Positions 527 through 9,476 of a stretch of 10,829 nt of DNA are shown here, piece by piece (position 1 is the first letter of the stretch; each line of letters begins with the position of its first letter). A model generated the notes under the pieces. The model was given only the letters and a program-made list of their open reading frames with translations, did no database searches and had not been told where the DNA came from. Position numbers and translations under genes: made by a program. Source of the DNA: a virus; IMG/VR virus record IMGVR_UViG_3300045988_161343. The stretch is one strand, 5' to 3'.

Positions 527-534
527 AAAAACAC

Positions 535-563
535 TTGACAAATCTGGTTGAACCTGTTATAAT
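535..563 (+). promoter_or_regulatory. Class-1 promoter: TTGACA (535-540), 17-nt spacer, TGn-TATAAT (558-563), followed by the conserved leader CCAAAAGAGAAAGGAAA
   Basis: Consensus sigma-70/sigma-A hexamers at ideal spacing. This is one of 8 near-identical cassettes in the window. Confidence 0.7.
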
Positions 564-597
564 AAAAATACTCCAAAAGAGAAAGGAAAATGATAAA

Positions 598-987
598 ATG
601 AAAAAACTGAAAACTGTACTTGTAATTGTATTTCTAGTTCTATTGGTTGCAATTTCTGTTGCAGGTTATACTCCCGCAGACAAAGTAAATAATAATTTGA
701 ATGTGACAGCTGATAACTTTGGCTGTGAACGTCGAATTACAGTTTACAATGCCCGAACTGATACAATTATTCTTTACGCCGAGGGCTATATGTCAATCAG
801 CAATAATAGTGCGTCAGAACTGGTTATCACTTGTAAAGTTGGGGCAAATGAATATAAGAAAAATTACATTTACCTAAATGATTATACTCTTTACGTTGTA
901 GAAGATATCACCGGTACACATACTGACCCTTACCACTATAAGATTGCATTCTATTCCAGCTTGCCGGATATTGACATTATGCCTTAA
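598..987 (+). CDS. Small secreted or membrane-anchored protein (N-terminal signal peptide or TM helix)
   Basis: ATG at 598 (or the in-frame ATG at 589) follows GAAAGGAAA. The N-terminus MKKLKTVLVIVFLVLLVAISVAG is a typical signal or anchor sequence. The ORF track's start at 535 is a TTG inside the promoter and is unlikely to be the real start. Confidence 0.6.
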   Translation: MKKLKTVLVIVFLVLLVAISVAGYTPADKVNNNLNVTADNFGCERRITVYNARTDTIILYAEGYMSISNNSASELVITCKVGANEYKKNYIYLNDYTLYVVEDITGTHTDPYHYKIAFYSSLPDIDIMP

Positions 988-1016
988 ATATTTGAAAGAA
1001 AATTTAATCAAGGGGA

Positions 1017-1045
1017 TTGACAAAACAATCCTCTTGTGATATAAT
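1017..1045 (+). promoter_or_regulatory. Class-1 promoter: TTGACA (1017-1022), 17-nt spacer, TATAAT (1040-1045). The -35 box is embedded in the hairpin AAGGGGATTG/CAATCCTCTT
   Basis: The hexamers and a roughly 40-nt leader are nearly identical to the 535-597 cassette. An inverted repeat flanks the -35 box. Confidence 0.7.
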
Positions 1046-1078
1046 AAAGATACTCCAAAAGAGAAAGGAAATGATAAT

Positions 1079-1552
1079 ATGATTAAGGAATTGTGTTTCG
1101 ATCTTGATGGAACTCTGGTTGACCTCTATGGTGTTGAAGATTGGCTTGATAAAATTCGAGCCTATGACCCTACACCCTATCAAATTGCCGAACCGCTGGT
1201 TGATATGGCAGAACTTGCTTGTCTGCTCCGTAGCTTGCAGAATTGCGGTATCAATGTTGCAGTTATCACTTGGCTGTCAAAAAAGCCGAACAAGCAGTAT
1301 GATGATGAAATCAGAAAAGCAAAACGAGCTTGGCTGAAAGAATATGGTTTTCCATTTGACAGTCTGCGATGTGTAGCCTATGGAACGCCGAAGCATAAGG
1401 TTGAAGCCGCAAGACTTGCTGATGATGAAGAAGCCCTGATTTTTGATGATGATGCAAGAGTCCGCAGAGATTGGGACTTGGGCGGAGCAATCGACCCCAC
1501 AACCACAAATATTCTTGATGTGCTGAAAGAAATCTTGAATGGGCTTGAATAA
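1079..1552 (+). CDS. HAD-superfamily phosphatase, 5'(3')-deoxyribonucleotidase-like
   Basis: HAD motif I FDLDGTLVD lies near the N-terminus (DxDGT). A conserved Lys (KHK) and the motif IV acidic pair LIFDDDARV are present. The roughly 157-aa size fits the small NT5C-like nucleotidases found in phages. Confidence 0.7.
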   Translation: MIKELCFDLDGTLVDLYGVEDWLDKIRAYDPTPYQIAEPLVDMAELACLLRSLQNCGINVAVITWLSKKPNKQYDDEIRKAKRAWLKEYGFPFDSLRCVAYGTPKHKVEAARLADDEEALIFDDDARVRRDWDLGGAIDPTTTNILDVLKEILNGLE

Positions 1553-1576
1553 GCCCATTCAATAGGGGAAAATAAA

Positions 1577-1780
1577 ATGATGATTCCTAAAAATATTATT
1601 GTCAAGTATTCAGGTTTTGATGAAAGAGGATTGTATTATAATAATGCGTTAGAGTTTCGCACAGAACGAGACGCTGACCTTTTTATTCTGGACATGAAGA
1701 AATTGATGTTTGGATTGCAATCCTATACAAAAATTATCACTTGGGAGAAAAAGGTAGAGACAGAAAATGATTGTAGATAA
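1577..1780 (+). CDS. Hypothetical small protein (67 aa), paralog of the next gene
   Basis: GGGGA Shine-Dalgarno before ATG 1577. It shares the pattern KN..V.Y...F.TE..AD.FI.D with ORF 1767-1967. Confidence 0.5.
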   Translation: MMIPKNIIVKYSGFDERGLYYNNALEFRTERDADLFILDMKKLMFGLQSYTKIITWEKKVETENDCR

Positions 1781-1967
1781 AAATTATTCTGTATTATATC
1801 AATATGAAAATACATTTGGTGTAGCTTGTAGTGAAAGACGACAGTTTGATACCGAAGAAGAGGCTGACAAATTTATCCAAGATTTGTTAAATGATGGTAA
1901 TAAATGTGTTTGGAAAATTGTAAAAAATGTTTGGACAAATTATTATTCCGGAGCAGAAAAGAAGTGA
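1767..1967 (+). CDS. Hypothetical small protein (66 aa), tandem paralog of 1577-1780
   Basis: Its start overlaps the end of the previous ORF by 14 nt. The pair FDTEEEADKFIQDL / FRTERDADLFILDM shows the similarity. Confidence 0.5.
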   Translation: MIVDKNYSVLYQYENTFGVACSERRQFDTEEEADKFIQDLLNDGNKCVWKIVKNVWTNYYSGAEKK

Positions 1968-2061
1968 TAAAAATGAATGACGAACAGCTTGATATTTTGC
2001 TTGAAGAAGCGACAGACATTAAAATTTTAATTGCCTTGGGCTGAAAGGATTGGTAAAAATT

Positions 2062-2089
2062 GGGAATCCAGATTTTGGATTCCCTTTTT
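2062..2089 (+). terminator. Rho-independent terminator (GGGAATCCA-loop-TGGATTCCC followed by TTTTT)
   Basis: A 9-bp GC-containing stem is followed by a T-run, downstream of the 1577-1967 gene pair. Confidence 0.7.
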
Positions 2090-2090
2090 C

Positions 2091-2235
2091 ATTTGAGCCT
2101 GCCGCGATCCAACGCCGCGGCAGGCATTTTAGATTTTTAGCATTTTCACCAATTTTTTGCCCTAAAATTTGTGCATTCTGCCAGTAGACAAAAATCCTAA
2201 AACATGATATACTTTATAATGTCAAAGGGAAATAA
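2091..2235 (+). repeat. Class-2 intergenic element, copy 1. It has a GC stem-loop (2097-2125), a U-rich trail ATTTTAGATTTTTAGC, an operator-like inverted repeat, and promoter TAGACA (2185-2190), 17-nt spacer, TGa-TATACT (2208-2213)
   Basis: About 85% identical to 6505-6650 and partially to 3896-4020. The stem GCCTGCCGCG/CGCGGCAGGC differs from the other copies but still pairs. Confidence 0.75.
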
Positions 2236-2275
2236 TAATTAAATGTTTAGATAAAATAAGAAAGAGGTAAGCCTA

Positions 2276-3340
2276 ATGACTATTGAAAAGAATAAGAACT
2301 TGTTTATCATCACTCTTGGAGATGGCAGGAAAACCTACTTCAACTTCTCTGATGGCTGTATCTATGGTATGACCGGCAAGAAGGTCAAGGATTTTTGTCC
2401 AGAAGCAAAGAAGATTTTAAAGACATACGCCGATAATGATTTTCTTGCAAGATATTTTGCGGTAAGAAATAAAAATTATGACTATTATTTTAGTAATGTT
2501 AATAAATGGTCTACTGAAATGGTAGAAACTATTTATAGCATTTTCGGCAAAGATTATAATTGGCGTATTCTTGGCGTGATTGCTTATTTCTGTAATTTTA
2601 ATAATTATGCTCTTGATAAGCAGGGCGTCAAGTATTTGAAATTGGGCCTTGCTTCATTGGAAGAACATCAATTTGAAAACCTGTGCCGGAATGAAATTGA
2701 AGTTGCTGTTCGGGCAGTACGTTATTCAAATGTTAATCCGCAGATTTTAAGACTTATGAATAATGTGAAGCCCGCAGTACATGAAACTATCCTGAAAGAC
2801 GCAGATAAAATTTTGTTCCGAATGGAACATGAATGTTGGGAACTGCTTGACGGTTTTTATAGTATGAGTAGAACCGTCGAAAGATACATCACACTCTGCA
2901 ACGAATTGGGCAAAGAAAGAACATACAAAGATATGTTTTTGGCCATTTGTCAGATGGAAATGGAAAAACGTCTTGCTCTTGAAGCAGGAAGCAAAGATTA
3001 TCAGTTAAATGCAAATCTTGCATTTGAAGATAATAATTTTATTGTACTTGTGCCGACGGTAGCAAAAGAATTTGAAGCAGAGGCCGATTATCAGTCAAAC
3101 TGTGTTTATCGTGCCTATTATCCAAAGGTATTGAAGCATGAAACACACATTGTTTTTATTCGGCACAAGACTGAACCGGAAAAACCTTACATCACCTGCG
3201 AAGTAAATAATGATGGTGAAATCGTCCAGTATCTGACACGTTTTAATAATTGTGTTGATTGGAAGACTGATGAATTGGGCTTCCAGTTCCAAGCAATATA
3301 CGCTAATTATCTTTCTGAACATTTTAATAAAAACGCTTGA
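2276..3340 (+). CDS. Hypothetical protein (354 aa), largest gene in the window
   Basis: AGAGG Shine-Dalgarno before ATG 2276 and a clean 1065-nt ORF. I have no confident family assignment. The stop codon TGA (3338-3340) lies inside the TTGACA of the next promoter. Confidence 0.7.
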   Translation: MTIEKNKNLFIITLGDGRKTYFNFSDGCIYGMTGKKVKDFCPEAKKILKTYADNDFLARYFAVRNKNYDYYFSNVNKWSTEMVETIYSIFGKDYNWRILGVIAYFCNFNNYALDKQGVKYLKLGLASLEEHQFENLCRNEIEVAVRAVRYSNVNPQILRLMNNVKPAVHETILKDADKILFRMEHECWELLDGFYSMSRTVERYITLCNELGKERTYKDMFLAICQMEMEKRLALEAGSKDYQLNANLAFEDNNFIVLVPTVAKEFEAEADYQSNCVYRAYYPKVLKHETHIVFIRHKTEPEKPYITCEVNNDGEIVQYLTRFNNCVDWKTDELGFQFQAIYANYLSEHFNKNA

Positions 3341-3365
3341 CAAAATAGCCCTATTATGATATAAT
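3337..3365 (+). promoter_or_regulatory. Class-1 promoter: TTGACA (3337-3342), 17-nt spacer, TATAAT (3360-3365). The -10 box is embedded in a 13-bp-arm palindrome ATAGCCCTATTAT-gat-ATAATAGGGCTAT
   Basis: Consensus hexamers, a perfect palindrome across the -10 box, then the conserved leader ATCAAAAGAAAGGAATTGATAAAAATG. Confidence 0.7.
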
Positions 3366-3395
3366 AGGGCTATCAAAAGAAAGGAATTGATAAAA

Positions 3396-3845
3396 ATGAA
3401 AGCAACTGGCATTATTCGCAGAATTGATGACCTTGGACGTGTAATTATTCCGAAAGACATTCGCCGTAGTTTGAAGATTCATGAGGGTGACCCACTTGAA
3501 ATCTTTATTGAAAATAACTGTGTTTGTTTTCAAAAGTATTCAACACTTGGTTCACTCGCCGAAGAACCTTTGCAGATTGCTATTAAAATGGCGTCAAATT
3601 CTGGTTTGCGTCCTATTGCAATTTATGACACTGATAAAAAATTGCGTGGGATGGAAAATTTTCCGCCCTATGTCTCGAAGACATGGGAAGATGAAGACGA
3701 GCCATTTGAATACAATGCCACTTACGGCGTTTACCCGATTGACGCAGATGGTGACCGCGTGGGGTATGTGGTTTGCGATTCACAAGACATGGGCTGTGAA
3801 GTGATGATGATTGCTCGCTATCTTGGCAGTGTAATTGAGAATTAA
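3396..3845 (+). CDS. AbrB/MazE/SpoVT-fold transcriptional regulator with an extra C-terminal domain of about 100 aa
   Basis: The N-terminus MKATGIIRRIDDLGRVIIPKDIRRSLKIHEGDPLEIFIEN aligns almost residue-for-residue with the Bacillus AbrB N-domain MKSTGIVRKVDELGRVVIPIELRRTLGIAEKDALEIYVDD. The true start is ATG 3396, not the track's TTG 3387. Confidence 0.85.
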   Translation: MKATGIIRRIDDLGRVIIPKDIRRSLKIHEGDPLEIFIENNCVCFQKYSTLGSLAEEPLQIAIKMASNSGLRPIAIYDTDKKLRGMENFPPYVSKTWEDEDEPFEYNATYGVYPIDADGDRVGYVVCDSQDMGCEVMMIARYLGSVIEN

Positions 3846-3849
3846 AAAA

Positions 3850-3895
3850 AATAACACAAGGGACTTATTTTGTCAAGTCCCTTGTGTTATTTTTT
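3850..3895 (+). terminator. Strong terminator (17-bp stem AATAACACAAGGGACTT/AAGTCCCTTGTGTTATT, then TTTTTT). An A-run precedes it, so it is potentially bidirectional
   Basis: Perfect long stem followed by a T-tract, immediately after the AbrB-like gene. Confidence 0.8.
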
Positions 3896-4020
3896 GAGCC
3901 TCGCGGCCACGGTCCAGCCGCGAGGATTTTTAGATTTTTGGCACATTGCACAATTTTTTACTCCAAATTTTGTGCAAAATGACAGTTGACATTTTTCCCG
4001 ATACCTGTTATATTATTGGT
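3896..4020 (+). repeat. Class-2 intergenic element, copy 2. GC stem-loop CCTCGCGGC-CACGGTCCA-GCCGCGAGG (3899-3925), the trail ATTTTTAGATTTTTGGC, inverted repeat TGCACAAtttttt...aaattTTGTGCA (3947-3976), and promoter TTGACA (3986-3991), 17-nt spacer, TGt-TATATT (4009-4014)
   Basis: The upstream half is homologous to copies 1 and 3. The stem sequence differs but pairing is preserved, and the promoter half is diverged. Confidence 0.7.
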
Positions 4021-4045
4021 ACAAGGTTAAGGGAGGGAATACCTA

Positions 4046-4219
4046 ATGACTTCTGACGAAAAACTTAAATACTGCATTGAGCAATGGGTTGAGACATTTG
4101 ATGATTGTGCTTGTTGTCCTCTGATGTTCAAATGCCGAGATGATGAAGATATCCAAGGAATTGACTGCATTGAATGTGGTGAAAAAATTATTGATTGGTT
4201 AAAGGAGAATGAACAATGA
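4046..4219 (+). CDS. Small Cys-rich (zinc-ribbon-like) protein, 57 aa, missing from the ORF track (below its length cutoff)
   Basis: Strong Shine-Dalgarno GGGAGGG lies 8 nt before ATG 4046. The translation is MTSDEKLKYCIEQWVETFDDCACCPLMFKCRDDEDIQGIDCIECGEKIIDWLKENEQ, with 7 Cys including a CxxC pair. The stop TGA overlaps the next start in an ATGA junction at 4216-4219. Confidence 0.55.
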   Translation: MTSDEKLKYCIEQWVETFDDCACCPLMFKCRDDEDIQGIDCIECGEKIIDWLKENEQ

Positions 4220-4629
4220 AAAATCTGTACTGGAAACGCATTTACATGAAAATGAATGATGGTCAAGAGCCTATTCTGAATTGGAACCCACAACTTGTTT
4301 ATCGCCCCGAACCGCCTGAAAATGAAGTATTGACAATTAAAAACACAACAGACCTTGCAGTAGCTATTTGCAGTAACTATATCAATGGTTCTATCAAGCG
4401 TGGAACTTTTGACAGAAGAATCAAAAAATTCCATATCGAGAATATGAGATACTGGAAAGGTGAAGAATACAAGCCCGAAAAAATCAGTTTCCCTGTTTCA
4501 CGTGAAACAATTTATAAGCCAGTTGATTATGACATGAGTTTCAAGAAGTTGTCGGGAGAATTGTCCGCAGAAGATTTTATCCGTTGGATGAAAGACAATG
4601 GCATGAACACTTGCCCGATGATTAAATAA
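4216..4629 (+). CDS. Hypothetical protein (137 aa)
   Basis: Translationally coupled to the upstream small ORF through the ATGA overlap, and preceded by AAGGAGAA. I recognise no motif. Confidence 0.6.
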   Translation: MKNLYWKRIYMKMNDGQEPILNWNPQLVYRPEPPENEVLTIKNTTDLAVAICSNYINGSIKRGTFDRRIKKFHIENMRYWKGEEYKPEKISFPVSRETIYKPVDYDMSFKKLSGELSAEDFIRWMKDNGMNTCPMIK

Positions 4630-4637
4630 ATTAGGGG

Positions 4638-4666
4638 TTGACAAACAACCCCTAATGTGATACAAT
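4638..4666 (+). promoter_or_regulatory. Class-1 promoter: TTGACA (4638-4643), 17-nt spacer, TGtGa-TACAAT (4661-4666). The -35 box sits in the perfect 11-bp hairpin ATTAGGGGTTG-acaaa-CAACCCCTAAT
   Basis: Consensus hexamers, an inverted repeat around the -35 box, and the conserved leader ATCAAAGGAAAGGAATTGATAAAAAATG. Confidence 0.7.
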
Positions 4667-4697
4667 AGATTTATCAAAGGAAAGGAATTGATAAAAA

Positions 4698-5009
4698 ATG
4701 ATTATGGACGCCGCTATTGTTAAAGCAATGAATTTGCAGGACTTTCACAATTATATAAACAACAGGAAGCCCGAAGAATTACAGACCCTAATTGCATTAG
4801 CCAAGGAAAGAATTAACCAGTTAGACCAAGAGAAAGAAGCAAAGTATATGGCCGCAATCATTAAGTCTGTTCAGGATTATCTGGATAATGTTGGAGATTT
4901 GACATTCCATGTTGAGTACGAAGACGAAGATGGTCATGACGCAGAAACTGACATCATCGTAGACAATCTGAATCCGCCTGCTGGTGGCAATGGAGTTATT
5001 TACATTTAA
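4698..5009 (+). CDS. Hypothetical acidic protein (103 aa)
   Basis: ATG 4698 directly follows the conserved leader. No family recognised. Confidence 0.6.
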   Translation: MIMDAAIVKAMNLQDFHNYINNRKPEELQTLIALAKERINQLDQEKEAKYMAAIIKSVQDYLDNVGDLTFHVEYEDEDGHDAETDIIVDNLNPPAGGNGVIYI

Positions 5010-5021: not shown

Positions 5022-5339
5022 ATGCTTACAAATCCGGCTTTTTGGGCAGTTTTTGGAGTTGTTCTCTTTTTCATCTGTTTGATCTTGATGTTTATCCCTG
5101 ACACTTGGCGTGGCAGATTGGCAGTTTTTGGCCTATGTTGTGTGATTGCCTTTACTTTTGCAAGTCTAATGTATTTCACTGCTACCAATAGCCAAGAACG
5201 TTGGAATGATGGTAGACATGCAGAAGATAGTGGCCGCTATTGGTTAACAAGCGTAACTGATTACAAAGGAATCAAAACATATTATTACACTTGTGAAGAT
5301 TGCGGGCATACTGAACAATTTAGTCAGATAATGAGATAA
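5022..5339 (+). CDS. Small membrane protein (two predicted TM helices) with a C-terminal CxxC motif
   Basis: AAGGAG Shine-Dalgarno lies 8 nt before ATG 5022. The track's GTG at 5013 is less likely. Hydrophobic segments AFWAVFGVVLFFICLILMFI and LAVFGLCCVIAFTFASLMYF are followed by YTCEDCGH. Confidence 0.6.
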   Translation: MLTNPAFWAVFGVVLFFICLILMFIPDTWRGRLAVFGLCCVIAFTFASLMYFTATNSQERWNDGRHAEDSGRYWLTSVTDYKGIKTYYYTCEDCGHTEQFSQIMR

Positions 5340-5343
5340 TAAA

Positions 5344-5418
5344 CAAGCCGGTTGGGAAAAAAAATTATAAAAAAAAATTCCCAACCGGCTTGACAAATTA
5401 AAAAAAATTTGATATAAT
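5344..5418 (+). promoter_or_regulatory. Hairpin (13-bp stem CAAGCCGGTTGGG/CCCAACCGGCTTG, 23-nt A-rich loop) fused to a class-1 promoter: TTGACA (5390-5395), 17-nt spacer, TGa-TATAAT (5413-5418)
   Basis: The 3' arm of the stem ends in the TTG of the -35 box. The conserved leader CCAAAAGGAAAGGAATCAATAAACATG follows. Confidence 0.65.
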
Positions 5419-5449
5419 AATAGTACCAAAAGGAAAGGAATCAATAAAC

Positions 5450-5860
5450 ATGACTGAAATTACTACCTATGAGTGCGACTTCTGCGGGCAGGTGTTTGAT
5501 GATGAAGAAGAATGTATTCATCATGAATGGAAATGCAGATATGAAGATTTATGTAAATCTGAAAATTGCGAGCCGCTGAAACTGTTCAACCTTGAAGGCA
5601 AGGAAATCAATGGTTTCGACTATCCTAAATGTGATGAAATTGGGGCGGTGGAAATTCATTCTTACCTTCAAGCACAATTCATCAATGATTATTTTGATGA
5701 AATGGGTTATGAAGTTCCCATTAAAATTGTCATGGGGCTGATTGACCACTATGGTCTGTGGTATTATGATCCTGAATACCACTATGGCAAGTGGCGGTCT
5801 TATGAAGAAGTTCTTGAAGATATTCAGGAAATTGGCAAGAAATTTAATCAAGGGGCTTGA
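5450..5860 (+). CDS. Small protein with an N-terminal C2H2-like zinc finger (136 aa)
   Basis: YECDFCGQVFDDEEECIHHEWKC shows Cx2C...HH spacing. The stop TGA (5858-5860) lies inside the TTGACA of the next promoter. Confidence 0.6.
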   Translation: MTEITTYECDFCGQVFDDEEECIHHEWKCRYEDLCKSENCEPLKLFNLEGKEINGFDYPKCDEIGAVEIHSYLQAQFINDYFDEMGYEVPIKIVMGLIDHYGLWYYDPEYHYGKWRSYEEVLEDIQEIGKKFNQGA

Positions 5861-5885
5861 CAAGCCCCTTGACCTGTGATATAAT
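5857..5885 (+). promoter_or_regulatory. Class-1 promoter: TTGACA (5857-5862), 17-nt spacer, TGtGa-TATAAT (5880-5885). The -35 box sits within the palindrome CAAGGGGCTTG-a-CAAGCCCCTTG
   Basis: The upstream context AATTTAATCAAGGGG is the same as at 1003-1017. The leader ATCAAAAGGAAAGGAAAGGAAATGATACAATG follows. Confidence 0.7.
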
Positions 5886-5920
5886 TGATTTATCAAAAGG
5901 AAAGGAAAGGAAATGATACA

Positions 5921-6196
5921 ATGAATTATCAGGTTATTTTCATGGACAATGAAGGAACTGTTCAGGCGGGCATTTGGAATCAGGACAGGGATGAAATTAT
6001 CTGCGGCTGCTGTGGTGCAACAATCGAATCGGGCGATTTTGTCCTGCTTCACATCTATGATGAATGGTTGAACATCACCGATGAAATCTGTGGGGATGAT
6101 GGAGATATTCTTCATGAGATTGAAGAAAAGGTTGACCGCCTGACAACTTCTGAAATTGAAGCAATTCTTGATGGAGAGAAGGATTTTAACGAATGA
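5921..6196 (+). CDS. Small Cys-rich protein (91 aa)
   Basis: ATG 5921 follows the conserved leader. The track's TTG at 5885 lies inside the promoter. Motifs are ICGCCGATIESGD and ICGDDGD. Confidence 0.55.
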   Translation: MNYQVIFMDNEGTVQAGIWNQDRDEIICGCCGATIESGDFVLLHIYDEWLNITDEICGDDGDILHEIEEKVDRLTTSEIEAILDGEKDFNE

Positions 6197-6501
6197 GTTT
6201 TTTCTTGTCTGTTATGTATGCTTGGCTAGCTGATAATAACATCAGCTATGCCCTCTATGGAGCAGATGGCTCTAAACTTGACAGCCGTTATGCCAGCAGA
6301 CTTCCTGACCAATTTATTCCATCAGAAACAAATGGATATTCTTATCCATTTCCCTATTGGATTTGTTATCCAATAGTCATAGATGGTGAATACTGCGGTT
6401 GCTGGTGTTTCATAGATGATGACAACTGTTCGAGACATGACAATTTTGTTCGAGTAGTTGAAATGACAGAAATTGCCTGCGGCATGGAAGCAGACTCCTA
6501 A
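6193..6501 (+). CDS. Small Cys-rich protein (102 aa)
   Basis: Joined to the previous gene by an ATGA overlap at 6193-6196. Motifs are YCGCWCF...DNCSRH...IACG. Confidence 0.55.
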   Translation: MSFFLSVMYAWLADNNISYALYGADGSKLDSRYASRLPDQFIPSETNGYSYPFPYWICYPIVIDGEYCGCWCFIDDDNCSRHDNFVRVVEMTEIACGMEADS

Positions 6502-6504
6502 AAA

Positions 6505-6650
6505 AAATGGGCGGTTCATTTGAGCCGCCCGATGTCCTGCACACCGGGCGGCATTTTAATTTTTTAGCATTTTGCACAATTTTTTCATGCAAATTTTGTG
6601 CATCTTGCCAATAGACAAAAATCCTGAAATGTGATATACTCTATAATGTC
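6505..6650 (+). repeat. Class-2 intergenic element, copy 3. Stem-loops at 6509-6530 and 6524-6552 share the CCGCCC segment. It also has the trail ATTTTAATTTTTTAGC, inverted repeat TGCACAA (6572-6578) / TTGTGCA (6596-6602), and promoter TAGACA (6612-6617), 17-nt spacer, TGa-TATACT (6635-6640)
   Basis: About 85% identical to copy 1 across roughly 110 bp, with the same promoter and a different, compensating stem sequence. Confidence 0.75.
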
Positions 6651-6739
6651 AAGAGAGGATAGCGATTAAAAGTGCTTGGTATCATTAGCCGGGCTACACA
6701 ACTTCCTAGGTTCGTGTGTAAAAAAAATAAAATTCCCTC

Positions 6740-6768
6740 TTGACAAACAACACCTGATGTGTTATAAT
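6740..6768 (+). promoter_or_regulatory. Class-1 promoter: TTGACA (6740-6745), 17-nt spacer, TGt-TATAAT (6763-6768), then the leader CCAGAAAGGAATTGATAAATATG
   Basis: Consensus hexamers and the conserved RBS leader before gene A1. It lies about 120 bp downstream of the class-2 promoter, so the two are tandem promoters. Confidence 0.65.
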
Positions 6769-6819
6769 TGAGTCAACAAGTGAAGGAAACACTTAAAAAC
6801 CAGAAAGGAATTGATAAAT

Positions 6820-7206
6820 ATGGAAAAGGTTAAAGCCCCCACCCGCAAGGAAATGTTCACTACTGTTTCTGACTTCCTCGCCCAGCATGATGCAGACACT
6901 GACCTGATTGATTTTGTCAATCACCAGATTGAGCTTCTGGACAACAAGAAGGAAAACAAGAAGCAGGCCAAGGAGCAGGAAGAAAACGCCGCCTATTCTG
7001 ATGCAATCTATGAGCAGATGGCATTCGAGCGTAAGTACAGCGTCGCAGAGCTGATGAAGGAGCTTCCGATGGTCAATGATTGGAACACCAACCATGAGAC
7101 CGAACTGTCGGTTCAGAAGCTCGCAAGTCTGTTGAAGCCGCTGGTCGATGGTGGCAAGGTCATTAAGACCACCGAGAAACGCAGAGTGTTCTACACCAAG
7201 GCGTGA
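6820..7206 (+). CDS. Hypothetical protein A1 (128 aa), paralog of 9099-9476, with a possible winged-helix-like C-terminus
   Basis: ATG 6820 follows the conserved leader. The C-terminal 75 aa are conserved with A2 (YS[VI]AEL[MI]KELP...QK[LM]A.LLK.LV..G.VIKTTEKRRV[FY]YTKA). GC is about 48% and C-ending codons are preferred, unlike upstream genes. Confidence 0.7.
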   Translation: MEKVKAPTRKEMFTTVSDFLAQHDADTDLIDFVNHQIELLDNKKENKKQAKEQEENAAYSDAIYEQMAFERKYSVAELMKELPMVNDWNTNHETELSVQKLASLLKPLVDGGKVIKTTEKRRVFYTKA

Positions 7207-7213
7207 TAAACCA

Positions 7214-7237
7214 TGGGGCGGAGAAATCCGCCCCACT
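7214..7237 (+). other. Intercistronic hairpin GGGGCGGA-gaaa-TCCGCCCC between A1 and B1
   Basis: An 8-bp GC stem with a GNRA-like loop and no following U-tract. It may be an attenuator or RNA-stability element. Confidence 0.5.
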
Positions 7238-7252
7238 AATTAAGGAGAGCCT

Positions 7253-7651
7253 ATGAGAGAGTTGACTGAAAAGGAATGGGCAAAAGTCGATAATCTTGTT
7301 GACAAGCTGGAATGTTCGATTGATGAAGCAGTTGACATTCTGGACGCCGACAAAGCTATTGACCGTAATCAAAAGGTTGATTTTGATTTAAGTCCAGAAG
7401 AACATAAGCAAGCAATGAAACTTGCTAATGTCAAAGAGCATGCGGTCAAGAAAAGCAATGTCTACCGCCCGCGTAAGCCTAATGAAATTAAAGGTGCAAT
7501 TATTGCCAGTTTGTCAAAATATTTGACAGAAACGGCAGATTTTGAAGTGATTGATGAAGAAGTCACAAACAAAGAGCGGACAATTATGTTTACAAGTGGC
7601 GGCAACCGCTACGAATTGACCCTGATACAAAAGAGAGCATCAAAAACTTAA
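7253..7651 (+). CDS. Hypothetical protein B1 (132 aa), paralog of 9569-9931
   Basis: AAGGAGAG Shine-Dalgarno 6 nt before ATG 7253. Shared blocks with B2 are SI[DE]EA..[IV]L[DE].DK.IDR and [NI][RK]Y.LTL[IM]. Confidence 0.7.
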   Translation: MRELTEKEWAKVDNLVDKLECSIDEAVDILDADKAIDRNQKVDFDLSPEEHKQAMKLANVKEHAVKKSNVYRPRKPNEIKGAIIASLSKYLTETADFEVIDEEVTNKERTIMFTSGGNRYELTLIQKRASKT

Positions 7652-7653
7652 AG

Positions 7654-7689
7654 AAAATGCTGGAAAATGAAAATTTTTCCAGCATTTTT
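7654..7689 (+). terminator. Rho-independent terminator (14-bp stem AAAATGCTGGAAAA/TTTTCCAGCATTTT, then TTTTTG)
   Basis: Perfect stem plus T-run directly after the B1 stop. Confidence 0.8.
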
Positions 7690-7735
7690 GTATAATTTAA
7701 TGAATTTTTAAGGATTTTTTGTGTATTTTTATCTA

Positions 7736-7800
7736 TTGACATTTGGGCTGCCCGGCCACGACCTAGCCGGGCAGAATTTCCAATATTTACCAGTTTTACC
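7736..7800 (+). repeat. Class-2-like element, degenerate copy 4. GC stem-loop CTGCCCGGC-CACGACCTA-GCCGGGCAG (7748-7774), then the ACCAATTTTTT segment
   Basis: The stem covaries with the other copies. Its loop CACGACCTA resembles the copy-2 loop CACGGTCCA. The downstream ACCAATTTTTT matches copy 1. Confidence 0.5.
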
Positions 7801-7920
7801 AATTTTTTTACCAAAATCTAGCTTCATTTGATTAAAGTATTAAATCCTTAAAGTGCCGCACTTTACCACATTAAAGTGTTAAAGTGTGCATAAATATTCA
7901 TTGAAAATGAATAAATATTC
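7786..7920 (+). repeat. Iteron cluster. TTTACCA repeats at 7786, 7795, 7807 and 7862. TTAAAGTG repeats at 7832, 7848, 7871 and 7879, plus an inverted copy forming the palindrome TAAAGTG-ccg-CACTTTA (7849-7865). ATAAATATTC direct repeats flank the hairpin TATTCATT-gaa-AATGAATA (7891-7920)
   Basis: Read directly from the sequence: several short direct repeats at roughly helical spacing in an AT-rich stretch. This is a candidate replication origin or complex operator. Confidence 0.55.
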
Positions 7921-7923
7921 TTC

Positions 7924-7952
7924 TTGACATTTTGGGCAAGGTGTGATAATAT
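7924..7952 (+). promoter_or_regulatory. Promoter: TTGACA (7924-7929), 17-nt spacer, TAATAT (7947-7952) with upstream TGTG. A roughly 60-nt leader follows, with the AAAGGATGG Shine-Dalgarno site
   Basis: Consensus -35 box and an A/T-rich extended -10 box directly upstream of the exonuclease gene. Confidence 0.6.
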
Positions 7953-8014
7953 ATAAGAGCAATGAGGGAGCGATGGCAAACCCTGATTGACATTATTAAA
8001 AGGATGGAAACCCT

Positions 8015-8872
8015 ATGACTAAACTTGATAAGCGTCGAAAGTATTACCTGATTCTGGATTGTGAAACTGCGACACTTCCTTATGCCGCAAAGTTTTCCGC
8101 AGATATGAAGAAGAATGTCGCAATCGCCAAGCCGCTGATTTATGATTTGGGATGGCAGATTGTGGATATTCGTGGCAAGGTCTATAAGCGTGCGTCCTAC
8201 CTCATTTCTGAAATTTTCAGTGTTCCCGCAGTTTTCAATACTGCATATTATGCAAGTAAGCGTCCGATTTATCTTGAACGTTTGAAGAATAAGGAAATCA
8301 CGCTTGCAGATTGGAACACGGCTGTTGCAGAACTGATTGAAGATTTGGACGCTGTTGAAGCCGTCGGAGCATATAACAGTATGTTCGACTTCAAAAAGGC
8401 TATTCCATTCACTGAACTTTATGTTTCCAAGCTGTATTCGCCGGATTTCTTTGAATGGGAAGTATATCAGAATAAACGATGTGAAGCAATCGCCCACGGA
8501 AGTAAGCCCCATTCGCAGACAGAATTTGAACCTGATGTTTTCCGCTTCCATGGCAAGACGTATCCGCTATTTGACTTGTGGGGTTTGTCTTGTGAACATC
8601 TGTTGAATAATCCCGACTATAAGCAGATGTGCTATGATAATGAGTGGAGAACGGCAAGTGGTAAATACTATCCGACTAATGCGGAAAAGGCATTTGCCTA
8701 TTGTTTCCAGCAGGAAGATTTTGAAGAAGCCCATACTGCAATCGAGGACGCAATTATTGAGTCTATGCTGTTCGCCCTTATTGGAGAAAAGACCAAGCAC
8801 AAGTTTGAGATGGGTATTGAATATTTTCCCTACAAAAAGTTGGGAAGATTTGACAGTGATTGGGAGCTGTAA
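8015..8872 (+). CDS. DEDDh-family (DnaQ/RNase T/DexA-like) 3'-5' exonuclease
   Basis: Exo I YLILDCETATLP carries the D-x-E pair. Exo II GAYNSMFDFKKA matches the [HY]N..FD motif. Exo III EEAHTAIEDAIIE matches the H-x-A-x-x-D-A motif, and its His makes this the DEDDh subtype. A long insert of about 120 aa lies between motifs II and III. Confidence 0.8.
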   Translation: MTKLDKRRKYYLILDCETATLPYAAKFSADMKKNVAIAKPLIYDLGWQIVDIRGKVYKRASYLISEIFSVPAVFNTAYYASKRPIYLERLKNKEITLADWNTAVAELIEDLDAVEAVGAYNSMFDFKKAIPFTELYVSKLYSPDFFEWEVYQNKRCEAIAHGSKPHSQTEFEPDVFRFHGKTYPLFDLWGLSCEHLLNNPDYKQMCYDNEWRTASGKYYPTNAEKAFAYCFQQEDFEEAHTAIEDAIIESMLFALIGEKTKHKFEMGIEYFPYKKLGRFDSDWEL

Positions 8873-8998
8873 AAGCTCCCATCGCCCTTGTAAAATTATC
8901 ACAGCTACGGTATTGAAATTGCCGTTTTGACAATTATTTCCAGCGTTTCACGATAAAATCTCAGCCGAAAAAAAATCGTGGAAAATTCAATTAAGGTA

Positions 8999-9027
8999 TT
9001 GACAAATCGAAAGGTTTGTGATACAAT
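8999..9027 (+). promoter_or_regulatory. Class-1 promoter: TTGACA (8999-9004), 17-nt spacer, TGtGa-TACAAT (9022-9027). The leader contains the palindromes TGTTCC-aagagag-GGAACA and GGTCGCGACC, then GAAAGGAATTGATAATTATG
   Basis: Consensus hexamers and the conserved RBS leader before gene A2. Confidence 0.65.
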
Positions 9028-9098
9028 ATAATTGTTCCAAGAGAGGAACACAAAATAAATAAGGGTCGCGACCTACCGCTAGAAAGGAATTGATAATT

Positions 9099-9476
9099 AT
9101 GGAAAAGAAGATTACCTATGCCCAGGCCCTGAACACCGTCCTGAACAATGAGAACATCGTCCTTGCGTCTGATGTTCGTGAGAAGCTGGAAGCTCTGCTT
9201 GTCTCTGTTTCCAAGAAGTCCGGCGAAAAGAAGGATACTGCACAGCAGGTCGAGAACGCCATGATGGTGGAGCGGATTTATCAGGAGATGGAAGCCAACC
9301 GGACTTACTCCATTGCCGAACTGATTAAGGAACTACCGGTTGTGGCTGATTTCAATGCCAACCATGAGAACGATATGTCCACGCAGAAAATGGCGAACCT
9401 GCTCAAGACCCTTGTGGAAGATGGCAGAGTGATTAAGACCACTGAAAAGCGGCGTGTCTACTACACCAAGGCATAA
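9099..9476 (+). CDS. Hypothetical protein A2 (126 aa), paralog of 6820-7206
   Basis: ATG 9099 follows the conserved leader. The track's start 9090 is a TTG inside the leader. The C-terminus ...LLKTLVEDGRVIKTTEKRRVYYTKA is nearly identical to A1. GC is high relative to the window. Confidence 0.7.
   Translation: MEKKITYAQALNTVLNNENIVLASDVREKLEALLVSVSKKSGEKKDTAQQVENAMMVERIYQEMEANRTYSIAELIKELPVVADFNANHENDMSTQKMANLLKTLVEDGRVIKTTEKRRVYYTKA

What the first reader, a model, noticed from the sequence alone, without database searches (positions are those of the whole stretch)
527..9100. Eight copies of a promoter-plus-leader cassette, each with a unique hairpin overlapping the -35 or -10 box. Twice the upstream gene's stop codon lies inside TTGACA
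Cassettes at 535, 1017, 3337, 4638, 5390, 5857, 6740 and 8999 all read TTGACA, a 17-nt spacer, then TGn-TAYAAT. Each is followed by an almost invariant 25-nt leader, (A)TCAAAAGGAAAGGAATTGATAAAAATG, whose GAAAGGA would pair with 8 nt of a Firmicutes-type anti-Shine-Dalgarno sequence. Most copies place a different short inverted repeat around the promoter hexamers. Examples are ATTAGGGGTTG/CAACCCCTAAT and CAAGGGGCTTG/CAAGCCCCTTG around the -35 box, ATAGCCCTATTAT/ATAATAGGGCTAT across the -10 box, and a 13-bp stem ending in the TTG of TTGACA at 5344-5392. Hairpins could occlude the promoter in single-stranded or RNA form, or mark a terminator-promoter fusion. The conserved leader suggests a common translational operator. 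Phages are known to encode translational repressors that recognise shared leader sequences, and that is established biology. At 3338-3340 and 5858-5860 the TGA stop of the preceding gene is the TGA within TTGACA, an extreme packing of gene boundaries. The 535 and 1017 cassettes are nearly identical over about 40 nt, and the 1003 and 5846 cassettes share an upstream AATTTAATCAAGGGG. Both point to recent cassette duplication.
Basis: seen in the sequence. Interest (0 to 1): 0.6.

Follow-up and report, generated by a model that had tools for sequence, protein, structure and literature searches.

The report
Phage early promoter–stem-loop cassettes (PeSL-like)
Eight near-perfect host-type promoters, most carrying a built-in RNA hairpin and all ending in a strong ribosome-binding leader, drive the small early genes of a ~185-kb gut phage; they closely resemble the "PeSL" promoter/terminator cassettes known from T4-like phages, apparently not yet described in phages with Gram-positive hosts.

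Summary
All eight TTGACA-N14-TGn-TAYAAT sites, both stop codons inside TTGACA, the shared leader and the named inverted repeats are at the stated coordinates. Shuffles gave 0.00 expected promoter matches. Six of eight cassettes have a significant hairpin (z -3.3 to -7.6); c1 and c7 do not.

The units are composite early-gene cassettes: phased A-tracts, a consensus Firmicutes-type promoter, a stem-loop laid over the promoter, and a 25-32 nt purine-rich 5'UTR. That UTR is mostly an extended Shine-Dalgarno sequence.

In 167 related cassettes, hairpins centred on the -35 box are about 12-fold enriched. They show compensatory changes between orthologues, and their internal mismatches are G·T 12 versus A·C 1. 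This points to selection on the sense RNA, meaning read-through transcripts from the upstream gene. Rearrangements relative to a ~92%-identical relative break inside the cassettes, at TTGACAAA.

This matches, feature for feature, the PeSLs of T4-like phages (Arbiol 2010; Comeau 2014). The lineage here is different: the closest cultured relative found, Enterococcus phage H1, has 13 such cassettes in 7.2 kb.

The terminator-promoter fusion and duplication ideas are supported. The translational-operator idea is neither needed nor supported.

Verdict: new member of a known kind, moderate interest.

The parts
519..600 (+). Cassette c1. A-rich upstream region; -35 at 535-540; TGT + -10 at 555-563; predicted start A570; SD AGAAAGGAAAA at 580-590; ATG 598 (g3). 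No significant hairpin.
   Evidence: Fold z +1.1. 94% identical to c2 over 555-589 (D9).
1000..1081 (+). Cassette c2. Stem-loop 1009-1036 (CAAGGGGATTG / CAATCCTCTTG, one G·T) with the -35 box (1017-1022) at the top of the stem and in the loop. -10 at 1040-1045; predicted start A1052; ATG 1079 (g4).
   Evidence: Fold -14.9 kcal/mol, z -3.3. The upstream AAATTTAATCAAGGGG is a non-coding copy of the g14 C-terminal coding sequence found at c6 (D2; read from the sequence).
3320..3398 (+). Cassette c3. The stop of g8 (TGA 3338-3340) lies inside the -35 box (3337-3342). A 13-bp stem-loop at 3345-3373 spans the spacer, the -10 box (3360-3365) and the discriminator. Predicted start ~A3372; ATG 3396 (g9, AbrB/MazE-like).
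   Evidence: Fold -16.6 kcal/mol, z -5.7. It is a chimera: the left half matches the L006 g8-end cassette and the right half the L006 g9 cassette, with the crossover at CTTGACAAA.
4626..4700 (+). Cassette c4. An 11-bp stem-loop at 4630-4656 (ATTAGGGGTTG / CAACCCCTAAT) is centred on the -35 box (4638-4643). -10 TACAAT at 4661-4666; ATG 4698 (g12).
   Evidence: Fold z -4.3. The orthologue in L006 (AATAGGGCTTG / CAAGCCCTATT) differs by two compensatory pair changes.
5344..5452 (+). Cassette c5. A 15-bp stem at 5344-5392 with a 19-nt A-rich loop ends in the TTG of the -35 box (5390-5395). -10 at 5413-5418; ATG 5450 (g14).
   Evidence: Fold -28.9 kcal/mol, z -7.6. The L006 orthologue keeps the stem with a G·T on the + strand.
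5840..5923 (+). Cassette c6. The stop of g14 (TGA 5858-5860) lies inside the -35 box (5857-5862). The 11-bp stem-loop at 5848-5872 (TCAAGGGGCTT / AAGCCCCTTGA) has its 5' arm in coding sequence. -10 at 5880-5885; ATG 5921 (g15).
   Evidence: Fold -20 kcal/mol, z -4.5. L006 has TCAAAGGGCTT / AAGCCCTTTGA: a compensatory G:C to A:T change whose 5' side is a Gly-to-Arg codon change.
6723..6822 (+). Cassette c7. -35 at 6740-6745; only a weak 5-bp spacer hairpin (AACAC/GTGTT); -10 at 6763-6768. The 51-nt leader carries a 5'-proximal hairpin, AAGTG 6778-6782 / CACTT 6790-6794. ATG 6820 (g17).
   Evidence: Promoter-region fold z -0.3. Both the spacer hairpin and the leader hairpin covary in relatives. 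In L006 this cassette is split by the g8 module, which is flanked by AAATTCCCTCTTGACAAATA repeats.
8982..9101 (+). Cassette c8. A 12-bp stem at 8996-9024 has a GAAA loop and two U·G pairs, and spans the -35 box (8999-9004), the spacer and the start of the -10 box (9022-9027). The 71-nt leader carries the hairpin GTTCC 9034-9038 / GGAAC 9045-9049 and the box GGGTCGCGACCTACCGC. ATG 9099 (g20, a paralogue of g17).
   Evidence: Fold -14.5 kcal/mol, z -3.5. Leader family.
3846..3895 (.). Bidirectional intrinsic terminator after g9. Read on the minus strand it looks like a cassette, with TTGACAAAAT in the loop and TGTTATTTT in place of the -10 box. It may be a flipped, decayed cassette.
   Evidence: 20-bp stem. 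I2, 75% complementary to 999-1042; I6. Compare the L005 1251(-) cassette CACAAGGGGCTTGACAAAATAAGCCCCTTGTGCTATAAT.

Best explanation
The eight units are composite early-gene regulatory cassettes of a ~185-kb phage with a Firmicutes-type host. In function and architecture they are equivalent to the PeSLs (promoter-early stem-loops) of T4-like phages.

Each unit has four parts:
1. Phased A-tracts that look like an UP element.
2. A consensus host sigma-A promoter: TTGACAA(A), a 17-bp spacer with the TRTG '-16' motif, then TATAAT.
3. In 6 of 8 units, a G-run/C-run stem-loop laid over the promoter in whatever positions the promoter leaves free. These are the flanks of the -35 box, the spacer, or the flanks of the -10 box.
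4. A 25-32 nt unstructured purine-rich 5'UTR beginning at an A seven nt after the -10 box. This UTR is essentially an extended Shine-Dalgarno sequence plus an AU-rich spacer.

Proposed mechanism:
- Host RNA polymerase fires each cassette immediately after infection.
- The stem-loop lies upstream of the cassette's own start site, so it exists only in RNA reading through from the gene upstream. There it would act as a terminator or attenuator, and perhaps as a 3'-end protector. This would insulate neighbouring units packed so tightly that a stop codon can sit inside the -35 box.
- The leader gives strong initiation. By loading a ribosome near the 5' end it probably also stabilises the mRNA.
- Because about 60 bp are shared between units, the cassettes also serve as homologous recombination sites that move, delete and swap the small genes they flank.

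Shown here: the sequence anatomy, the enrichment, the compensatory changes, the strand asymmetry, and the breakpoints inside cassettes.
Inferred: promoter activity, start sites, termination, mRNA stabilisation, and early timing.
For: - Exact consensus promoters: 8 observed against 0 expected.
- Consensus over 167 related cassettes shows A-tracts at -5..-10, -16..-20 and -28..-31, T at -16, and A at +7 after the -10 box.
- Hairpins are significant in 6 of 8 cassettes.
- In the 167 cassettes, -35-centred stems of 8 or more Watson-Crick pairs number 13, against 1.1 in chimera controls (maximum 4).
- Compensatory changes between orthologous cassettes of the window and L006 occur at c4 (two pairs), c6 (one pair, with one side a codon change) and the c7 spacer hairpin.
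- Internal mismatches in 28 unique hairpins: G·T 12, A·C 1, other 3; binomial p = 0.003 for G·T versus A·C. About 9:1 remains after collapsing one related group.
- The + strand fold is more stable than the - strand fold in 25 cases against 6.
- 3' tails are T-enriched: 3.6 of 9 in the metagenomic set and 5.3 of 9 in phage H1, against 2.4 in the background.
- The extended SD also occurs at promoter-less genes.
- The modal 5'UTR implied by the -10-to-ATG distance is 24-33 nt.
- Breakpoints lie in cassettes. c3 is a chimera with its crossover at CTTGACAAA. The g8 module is flanked by 20-nt cassette repeats in L006 and is absent from that site in the window. Different genes follow the orthologous g11 cassette.
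- The region is rich in small genes of unknown function: of the 20 window ORFs scanned, 15 have no Pfam match above the family cut-off. Near-consensus promoters cluster in about 17 kb, and all but one divergent site at the left edge are on the + strand.
- Cultured Enterococcus phage H1 has 13 such cassettes in 7.2 kb, several with T-rich tails.
- The published PeSL description matches point by point. It lists a sigma-70 consensus, an AT-rich upstream region, polyG/polyC stem-loops in five positions relative to the promoter, G-T pairs, SD plus ATG at the 3' end, terminator and promoter activity in lacZ assays, and crossovers in the loop (PMC2839356 section 14; PMC4122927).
Against: - No transcript data exist; promoter use, start sites and termination are all inferred.
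- In the window itself the + strand tails after the stems are only weakly T-rich (3-4 T of 9). The simple terminator scan flagged the c4 and c6 hairpins only on the minus strand. Efficient intrinsic termination is therefore doubtful, and 'attenuator' is the safer word.
- Two of the eight cassettes (c1, c7) lack a hairpin, so it is not obligatory.
- The 167 cassettes are not phylogenetically independent, and part of the set was retrieved with a leader 14-mer. This inflates the apparent conservation of the leader.
- The rearrangement evidence rests on one close relative (L006).
Confidence: 0.7

Rival explanations
1. The leader is a shared translational operator. A phage-encoded RNA-binding protein, either a RegA-like repressor or a RegB-like nuclease, would recognise the conserved 5'UTR and shut off all early genes together.
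For: - The 16-mer RGAAAGGAAWTGATAA recurs 8 times against 0.15 expected.
- In c3-c6 conservation extends from +1 to the ATG. That is more than a minimal SD needs.
Against: - The conserved bases are those that would pair with the 16S 3' tail, 12 of 15 for AGAAAGGAAUUGAUA against 3'-UCUUUCCUCCACUAG-5'. This is my reading and relies on the B. subtilis-type tail.
- Close variants occur at genes with no cassette promoter: AGAAAGGAGTGA, TAAGGAGTGATA, AGAAAGGATGATA.
- Across 137 cassettes only purine richness at -18..-9 is conserved, at 0.8 bit or less per position.
- No RNA-binding candidate was found in the window, but only 20 of the 22 ORFs were scanned against Pfam and 10 against PHROGs.
- This rival is not exclusive of the main explanation.
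Confidence: 0.1
2. The hairpins work on the opposite strand. Together with the A-tracts upstream of the -35 box, which read as T-runs on the minus strand, they would be intrinsic terminators that stop antisense transcription entering the early region.
For: - The terminator scan flags 5874..5846 and 4656..4630 on the minus strand.
- The 9 nt upstream of the GC core contain on average 5.45 A, which is more T-rich on the minus strand than the + strand tail is.
- Minus-strand genes lie about 0.4 kb beyond the right end of the window.
Against: - Internal mismatches are G·T on the + strand 12 times and A·C once. A·C on the + strand would be G·U on the minus strand.
- The + strand fold is more stable in 25 of 31 non-tied cases.
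- The A-tracts are present just as much in cassettes without hairpins (4.5 of 9), so they are explained by an UP-element role.
- No minus-strand genes or consensus promoters occur inside the array.
Confidence: 0.08
3. The inverted repeats have no function of their own. They would be chance palindromes or by-products of recombination in AT-rich promoter DNA.
For: Two cassettes lack them. Their positions and sequences differ. Weak 5-bp stems are not above chance (stems of 6 or more around the -10 box: 8 observed against 10.9 expected).
Against: - z-scores of -3.3 to -7.6.
- About 12-fold enrichment over chimera controls.
- Compensatory double changes, one of them at the cost of an amino-acid change.
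- The same design is seen in relatives with only about 25-55% protein identity, and in phage H1.
Confidence: 0.05
4. The hairpins act at the DNA level. A cruciform or single-strand hairpin would switch the promoter off, or create a hairpin promoter for a phage polymerase as in N4, or each palindrome would be an operator for a dimeric repressor.
For: The palindromes straddle the -35 or -10 box, which is where operators usually lie. The -35 hexamer sits in the loop.
Against: - Each palindrome has a different sequence and loop length (3-9 nt, and 19 nt in c5), so no single protein could read them.
- G·T asymmetry is not expected for a cruciform or for duplex recognition.
- The promoters are perfect host sigma-A sites rather than N4-type hairpin promoters.
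Confidence: 0.04

Closest known systems
PeSLs (promoter-early stem-loops) of T4-like phages RB49/phi1, PST/T4 and nt-1/KVP40 (Arbiol et al. 2010, PMC2839356; Comeau et al. 2014, PMC4122927)
   Same: - Near-perfect TTGACA-N17-TATAAT host promoter with an AT-rich region upstream.
- A stem-loop, often a G-run followed by a C-run (A3-4G3-loop-C3T3-4 in nt-1), placed variably: over the -35 box, between the boxes, over the -10 box, upstream or downstream.
- G-T pairs drawn on the sense strand.
- The upstream stop codon at the 5' edge, and SD plus ATG at the 3' edge.
- Dense arrays between small genes of unknown function.
- Breakpoints of insertions, deletions and replacements at the cassettes, with crossovers in the loop.
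- A second class based on another promoter type (PmSL), comparable to the class-2 units here.
   Different: - A different phage lineage. The closest cultured relatives found, by one protein, are ~140-kb Enterococcus phages (29% identity), not T4-like phages.
- Gram-positive promoter features: the TRTG -16 motif, an obligatory extended -10 box, and phased A-tracts.
- A long 16S-complementary leader.
- In this lineage the hairpin is most often centred on the -35 hexamer, whereas in phi1 the commonest positions are between the boxes or over the -10 box.
- Termination, promoter strength and mini-circles were shown experimentally for PeSLs and are untested here.
- The two are analogues, not homologues.
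Host-takeover module of Bacillus phage SPO1 and early regions of other large virulent Firmicutes phages (Stewart et al.; from my own knowledge, not checked here)
   Same: A cluster of many short early genes. Each gene, or each small group of genes, has its own very strong sigma-A promoter and strong ribosome-binding site, and all are transcribed by host polymerase straight after infection.
   Different: To my knowledge, hairpins embedded in the promoters and cassette-mediated shuffling have not been described there. I did not examine SPO1 sequence, and no homology to SPO1 genes was found or sought.
5' mRNA stabilisers of Bacillus: the SP82 early-RNA polypurine leader (Hue, Cohen & Bechhofer 1995) and cryIIIA STAB-SD (Agaisse & Lereclus 1996), from my own knowledge
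   Same: An SD-like polypurine sequence complementary to the 16S 3' end, a few nucleotides from the 5' end of the transcript. Here AGAAAGGAAUUGAU starts 6-11 nt after the predicted +1.
   Different: In those systems the SD-like element can be separate from the real ribosome-binding site. Here it is the ribosome-binding site. Stabilisation is untested.
T4 RegA translational repressor and RegB endoribonuclease acting on early mRNA leaders
   Same: Many early mRNAs share a short motif at the ribosome-binding site.
   Different: No RegA- or RegB-like protein was detected in the window. The motif is explained by complementarity to the 16S rRNA.

Membership tests
PeSL-type composite promoter/stem-loop cassette | Near-consensus host sigma-70-type (early) promoter | tested here: met
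   Eight exact TTGACA-N14-TGN-TAYAAT sites against 0 expected.
PeSL-type composite promoter/stem-loop cassette | [quoted passage not shown] | tested here: met
   A-tracts at -5..-10, -16..-20 and -28..-31 in the 167-cassette profile, with A+T up to 0.9. All eight window copies show them.
PeSL-type composite promoter/stem-loop cassette | Stable stem-loop, often polyG then polyC, overlapping or next to the promoter, in variable position | tested here: met
   Six of eight copies have z <= -3.3. Observed positions: over the -35 box (c2, c4, c6), over the -10 box (c3), upstream (c5), spanning both boxes (c8). Enrichment 13 against 1.1. Two copies (c1, c7) lack it.
PeSL-type composite promoter/stem-loop cassette | Shine-Dalgarno sequence and start codon of the next gene at the 3' end; stop codon of the previous gene at the 5' edge | tested here: met
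   Two stop codons lie inside the -35 box itself.
PeSL-type composite promoter/stem-loop cassette | Clustered in plastic regions rich in small genes of unknown function | tested here: met
   Of the 20 window ORFs scanned, 15 have no Pfam match above the family cut-off. Promoters cluster in about 17 kb of the 28 kb seen. Gene order is shuffled among relatives. Only 28 of the ~185 kb could be examined.
PeSL-type composite promoter/stem-loop cassette | Rearrangement breakpoints between close relatives lie in the cassettes | tested here: met
   Window against L006 (~91-93% nt identity): c3 is a chimera with its crossover at CTTGACAAA; the g8 module is flanked by 20-nt cassette repeats; genes are swapped after the g11 cassette. 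Only one close relative was available.
PeSL-type composite promoter/stem-loop cassette | The stem-loop terminates or attenuates upstream transcription (lacZ assay in the original work) | not testable with these tools
   Indirect evidence only: sense-strand G·T bias of 12:1, and T-enriched tails at 3.6 of 9 against 2.4 in the background, 5.3 of 9 in phage H1.
PeSL-type composite promoter/stem-loop cassette | Recombination between neighbouring cassettes gives mini-circles | not testable with these tools
   Needs inverse PCR or long reads from infected cells.
PeSL-type composite promoter/stem-loop cassette | Occurs in T4-like myoviruses (the only lineage reported so far) | tested here: inconclusive
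   The closest cultured hits for g19 are Enterococcus phages H1, EF1, EF5 and VRE9, at 29% identity. H1 carries the same cassette array next to HAD-hydrolase and exonuclease genes, the same protein types as g4 and g19. The published authors treat PeSL-like elements with different promoters as analogues, so lineage is not strictly defining.
Shared translational operator (RegA/RegB-type control) | A dedicated phage RNA-binding repressor or nuclease, plus a leader motif not explained by ribosome binding | tested here: not met
   The motif would pair with the 16S 3' tail at 12 of 15 positions (my reading). It is present at promoter-less genes. No candidate protein was found in the window. The rest of the genome was not searched.
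N4-type hairpin promoters / single-strand promoters (Frpo-like) | The promoter elements are created or recognised only in the hairpin form | tested here: not met
   The -35 and -10 boxes are perfect duplex sigma-A sites with a 17-bp spacer. The hairpin puts the -35 hexamer in the loop, which would destroy it rather than build it. Hairpin position varies.

The most novel reading that the evidence does not exclude
PeSL-like cassettes are not a T4 peculiarity. They would be a convergent, general solution in large virulent phages, here in a deep clade of gut Bacillota phages that includes cultured Enterococcus phages.

In this reading the -35-centred stem-loop is more than an attenuator. It would be the preferred crossover or structure-specific cleavage point, making each promoter + small-gene unit a mobile gene cassette. 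That would amount to an integrase-free analogue of an integron array and would drive turnover of early host-takeover and anti-defence genes.
Probability: 0.2. Interest if true: 0.65.

Novelty: new member of a known kind. Interest (0 to 1): 0.4.

Why it matters
The result extends a little-known phage genome-plasticity device, the PeSL cassette, from T4-like phages of Gram-negative hosts to a separate clade of large gut phages with Gram-positive-type expression signals.

It adds comparative evidence the original work did not report:
- compensatory changes in the stems;
- a sense-strand G·U bias;
- crossovers mapped to the TTGACAAA loop.

It also identifies a cultured system, Enterococcus phage H1 and its relatives, in which the terminator, promoter and mini-circle ideas can be tested.

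In practice the cassettes mark early transcription units in uncultured phage genomes. They are also a source of compact, very strong promoter + RBS parts for Firmicutes.

Tried and rejected
- Megablast of the whole window against 50,697 phage records found nothing.
- Rfam on L001, which contains the window, gave only sub-threshold chance hits at E <= 1. No tRNAs were found in L001-L006.
- A whole-word literature search for 'PeSL' returned mostly unrelated acronyms. A search for the accession numbers of the Enterococcus phages found no paper describing their promoters.
- RNAalifold on nine c7-type leaders predicted no structure, because the short stems were out of register in the MAFFT alignment. 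The covariation I cite for those leaders is read directly from the sequences and is not a tool statistic.
- The 14-mer scan of viral contigs returned many chance loci. Only loci carrying the full promoter pattern were used, and the retrieval bias on leader conservation is acknowledged.
- Rejected: minus-strand terminators (G·T:A·C = 12:1); common operator palindromes (every sequence differs); N4-like hairpin promoters (the -35 box lies in the loop).
- Not used: the large protein-database searches, structure prediction, and the genome/metagenome scans. The question was answered without them.

Full report

Yes.

- The pattern TTGACA-N14-TGN-TAYAAT occurs exactly eight times, all on the + strand, at 535, 1017, 3337, 4638, 5390, 5857, 6740 and 8999. 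None of 200 dinucleotide-preserving shuffles gave a single match. The generic promoter scan ranks these eight as its top-scoring sites.
- The ORF table shows g8 (2276-3340) and g14 (5450-5860) ending in the TGA inside TTGACA.
- The leader 16-mer RGAAAGGAAWTGATAA, with up to 2 mismatches, occurs 8 times against 0.15 expected.
- Folded as + strand RNA, six promoter regions have significant hairpins: c2 z -3.3, c3 -5.7, c4 -4.3, c5 -7.6, c6 -4.5 and c8 -3.5. c1 (+1.1) and c7 (-0.3) do not.

- The 'invariant 25-nt leader' holds for c3-c6 only. c1 and c2 share a variant. c7 and c8 have 51- and 71-nt leaders with their own hairpins.
- Not every copy has a hairpin.

**2. Where the window comes from**

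- The window is identical to part of a 184,981-bp metagenomic contig. A second assembly of 185,023 bp is circularly permuted relative to it, so the genome is probably complete at about 185 kb.
- The window encodes about 22 small + strand genes. Of the 20 scanned, 15 have no Pfam match above the family cut-off. The exceptions are a nucleoside deoxyribosyltransferase fragment, a Phage_VG64 family protein, a PcfJ-like domain, an AbrB/MazE-like N-terminal domain and, through PHROGs, a deoxyribonucleotidase-like HAD protein.
- In the 28 kb I could read, near-consensus promoters cluster in about 17 kb. All are on the + strand except one divergent site at the left edge, and they stop where a tightly packed operon begins.
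- No close DNA relative exists among cultured phages.
- By protein, g19 reads by eye as a DEDDh-type exonuclease (H1 annotates its homologue as an exodeoxyribonuclease). It is 29% identical to proteins of ~140-kb Enterococcus phages H1, EF1, EF5 and VRE9.

**3. Anatomy across relatives**

Scans of IMG/VR with leader fragments brought in about 30 related loci, many from 110-196-kb contigs. Together they gave 167 non-identical cassettes.

Their profile shows:
- A-tracts at -5..-10, -16..-20 and -28..-31 relative to the -35 box. These are phased by about 10 bp and look like an UP element.
- C at -1, then TTGACAA(A).
- T at the -16 position. Six of the eight window copies read TRTG, the Gram-positive '-16 region'.
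- A variable 6-nt discriminator, then an A at the position where transcription would be expected to start.

The modal distance from the -10 box to the ATG is 30-39 nt, which implies a 5'UTR of about 24-33 nt. In the window the conserved leader therefore begins at the predicted +1, as in tataat-agggct-ATCAAAAGAAAGG.

**4. The leader**

- AGAAAGGAAUUGAUA would pair at 12 of 15 positions with the Firmicutes-type 16S 3' tail, 3'-UCUUUCCUCCACUAG-5'. The pairing is 8 contiguous pairs, a 2-nt gap at the core, then 4 more pairs. This is my reading of the sequence, and the tail sequence comes from general knowledge.
- Genes in the same contig that have no cassette promoter carry close variants. Examples are AGAAAGGAGTGAGTTGA-ATG, TAAGGAGTGATACAA-ATG, AGAAAGGATGATACAAT-ATG, and g7 at 1955.
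- Across 137 cassettes with a downstream ORF, only purine richness at -18..-9 is conserved. Thirty of them contain the 14-mer that I used for retrieval.

The leader is therefore best read as an extended Shine-Dalgarno sequence in a short, unstructured, A-rich UTR. The near-identity among c3-c6 is then due to local duplication or recombination.

In Bacillus, SD-like polypurine sequences close to a 5' end also stabilise mRNA. The SP82 leader and cryIIIA STAB-SD are examples (my own knowledge). That is a plausible second role here. A dedicated translational repressor is not needed, though it is not excluded.

**5. The hairpins are selected, and on the sense strand**

*Enrichment.* Each cassette's upstream half was joined to another cassette's downstream half as a control.

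| Hairpin position | Stems of >= 8 Watson-Crick pairs, observed (of 167) | Chimera controls |
|---|---|---|
| Centred on the -35 box | 13 | 1.1 (max 4) |
| Upstream | 15 | 4.8 |
| Around the -10 box | 4 | 0.9 |
| In the 5'UTR | 13 | 0.9 |

*Design.* The recurrent design is A(n)G(n)-[(T)TGACAAA]-C(n)T(n), with the invariant -35 hexamer in the loop. The arms occupy the positions that a promoter leaves free. This explains why the hairpin sits around the -35 box, inside the spacer or around the -10 box.

*Compensatory changes* between orthologous cassettes of the window and L006, which is about 92% identical in shared DNA:
- c4: ATTAGGGGTTG/CAACCCCTAAT against AATAGGGCTTG/CAAGCCCTATT. Two pairs changed on both sides.
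- c6: TCAAGGGGCTT/AAGCCCCTTGA against TCAAAGGGCTT/AAGCCCTTTGA. The 5' change is a Gly-to-Arg codon change in g14.
- c7 spacer: AACAC/GTGTT against AGCAC/GTGCT.

*A hairpin kept through a different partner.* The g9 cassette pairs its spacer GCCCTATT with an upstream AATAGGGC in L006. In the window it pairs with a downstream ATAATAGGGCTAT instead.

*Strand.*
- In 28 unique GC-containing hairpins, including those of phage H1, internal single mismatches are G·T 12, A·C 1 and other 3 (binomial p = 0.003 for G·T versus A·C). About 9:1 remains after collapsing one related group.
- + strand folds are more stable than - strand folds in 25 cases against 6.

*Consequence.* The hairpins lie upstream of the predicted start, so the only sense RNA that contains them is read-through from the gene upstream.

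*Tails.* The 3' tails are T-enriched relative to hairpin-less cassettes: 3.6 against 2.4 of 9 nt. In phage H1 the figure is 5.3 of 9, and several H1 sites look like canonical intrinsic terminators embedded in the spacer, for example GGGCTTGAcaagcTCAAGCCC-TTTTGTTAT. In the window itself the tails are weak, so 'attenuator' is the safer description.

**6. The cassettes are recombination sites**

L006 shares most window genes at 83-100% protein identity, but in a different order. The junctions fall in cassettes:
- Window c3 equals the L006 g8-end cassette up to CTTGACAAA, and the L006 g9 cassette from GCCCTATT onward.
- In L006 the g8 module sits inside a c7-type cassette, flanked by the 20-nt direct repeat AAATTCCCTCTTGACAAATA. 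The window has the uninterrupted cassette at that site and carries g8 elsewhere.
- The orthologous g11 cassette is followed by g12-g13 in the window and by a divergent g9 in L006.
- More distant relatives, at 25-55% protein identity, carry homologues of g4, g8, g9, g17/20, g18/21 and g19 in many different orders, with several copies of the g17/20 and g18/21 families.

**7. Comparison with what is known**

The description of PeSLs in T4-type phages matches point by point. The published features are:
- motifs identical to the sigma-70 consensus;
[quoted passage not shown] - five subclasses by stem-loop position: between the boxes, overlapping the -35 or the -10 box, upstream, or downstream of the -10 box;
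- G-T pairs in the stems;
- SD and start codon at the 3' end;
- location in hyperplastic regions rich in ORFans;
- terminator and very strong promoter activity in lacZ fusions;
- recombination between PeSLs, with crossovers in the loop, giving indels and mini-circles;
- a second class built on middle promoters (PmSL).

In the papers I could search, PeSLs are reported for T4-like phages, with only passing mentions elsewhere.

Cultured Enterococcus phage H1 has 13 near-consensus cassettes in 7.2 kb (record 91.8-99.0 kb). They lie next to HAD-hydrolase and exonuclease genes, the same protein types as g4 and g19. At least eight carry hairpins centred on the -35 box or in the spacer. I found no paper describing this.

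The finding is therefore a new member of a known kind. It is analogous to the T4 elements, not homologous. The SPO1 host-takeover module is a looser functional parallel, cited from memory and not examined.

**8. Verdict**

*Best explanation (confidence about 0.7).* These are PeSL-like composite early cassettes. Each combines a strong host promoter, an overlaid attenuator or terminator stem-loop acting on read-through RNA, and a strong RBS / 5'-stabilising leader. They double as recombination sites that shuffle small early genes.

*What rests on data and what on inference.* The anatomy, enrichment, covariation, strand bias and breakpoints come from the analyses above. Transcription starts, termination, stabilisation and timing are inferred.

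*Rivals.* A leader operator, minus-strand terminators, functionless palindromes and DNA-level switches are each at 0.1 or below, for the reasons given in the rival section.

*Scores.* Interest is moderate at 0.4. The finding is a clean extension of an under-appreciated mechanism to a new phage clade with a tractable cultured representative, but it is not a new principle.

Noticed in passing
window 2088-2246, 3893-4020, 6515-6673, 7738-7830 (degenerate copy ~10000-10140); L006 3850-4105 and 6760-6925: A second family of repeated intergenic units, about 130-160 nt long. The order of parts is: the conserved box TTCATTTGAGCC; a GC-rich hairpin whose arms covary between copies; a T-run; the imperfect palindrome AGCATTTTGCACAATTTTTT...CAAATTTTGTGCA, which looks like an operator; then a weaker promoter TAGACA/TTGACA-17-TGnTATACT/TATATT. 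It may be a regulated or later promoter class, comparable to the PmSLs of phage nt-1. The AbrB-like g9 is one conceivable regulator, but this was not tested.
   Followed up: partly
window 6647-6739 (and the orthologous stretch in L006, about 3856-3960 on the - strand): The class-2 promoter at 6612-6640 is followed by about 90 nt with no ORF, and then directly by cassette c7. The stretch is conserved in L006. It could be a leader, a small RNA, or simply a tandem-promoter arrangement. Rfam and tRNA scans found nothing.
   Followed up: partly
window 6775-6819 and 9034-9098; relatives listed: The long leaders of the g17/g20 gene family carry a 5'-proximal hairpin that covaries among relatives. Observed arm pairs are AAGTG/CACTT, AAGGG/CCCTT, AAGAG/CTCTT, AGGAC/GTCCT, AGGTC/GACCT, and GTTCC/GGAAC against GTCCC/GGGAC. 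The c8-type leaders also share a conserved box GGGTnGCGACCnACCGC just before the SD. This may be a 5' stabiliser or an autoregulatory site. RNAalifold failed on the MAFFT alignment, so the covariation is read by eye.
   Followed up: partly
window 6820-7651 and 9099-9931: The gene pairs g17-g18 and g20-g21 are paralogous two-gene modules, each behind its own cassette. Both families are present in several copies per genome in many related phages, and neither matches Pfam or PHROGs. They may be a diversifying early function such as anti-defence. This was not pursued.
   Followed up: no
window 3846-3895: The bidirectional terminator after g9 reads, on the minus strand, like a cassette: TTGACAAAAT in the loop, with TGTTATTTT in place of the -10 box. 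It is close to the L005 1251(-) cassette. This suggests that cassettes and terminators can interconvert by inversion.
   Followed up: partly
L001 2575-4440 (about 5.1 kb upstream of the window start): A ninth consensus cassette (TTGACAAGCCGGAAGTCCTATGGTACAAT) is followed by GC-richer sequence with no SD. About 1.8 kb there has no called gene. It could encode non-coding RNA or contain missed genes.
   Followed up: no
L005 681(+), L004 4082(-), L093 6101(+), L055 422(-), L031 9032(-): In relatives, some consensus cassettes fire directly into a GC-rich hairpin followed by a T-run or TTTGTCAATAG. They lie on the strand opposite a class-2 unit. The products would be very short transcripts or antisense RNAs against the class-2 promoter region.
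   Followed up: no
L130 3722-10933 (Enterococcus phage H1, OP534061, record 91.8-99.0 kb); also L129 23018, 26263, 28090: This cultured phage has 13 PeSL-like cassettes in 7.2 kb. Elsewhere in its genome, promoters of the form TTGACTTTTTAT are preceded by the complementary AAAGTCAA, so the -35 box forms the 3' arm of a hairpin. This makes H1 an experimental system for the whole question.
   Followed up: partly
L001 18691-20484 (about 0.4 to 2 kb right of the window end): A short leftward block sits immediately after the rightward early array. It encodes a GIY-YIG-like protein (weak hit), a DUF6291 protein and a small RHH-like protein (weak hit). It could be a homing-endonuclease or regulatory island.
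   Followed up: no
L127/L128 (contigs of 184,981 and 185,023 bp): Two independent assemblies of almost the same length are circularly permuted relative to each other. The genome is therefore probably complete and either circularly permuted or terminally redundant.
   Followed up: no
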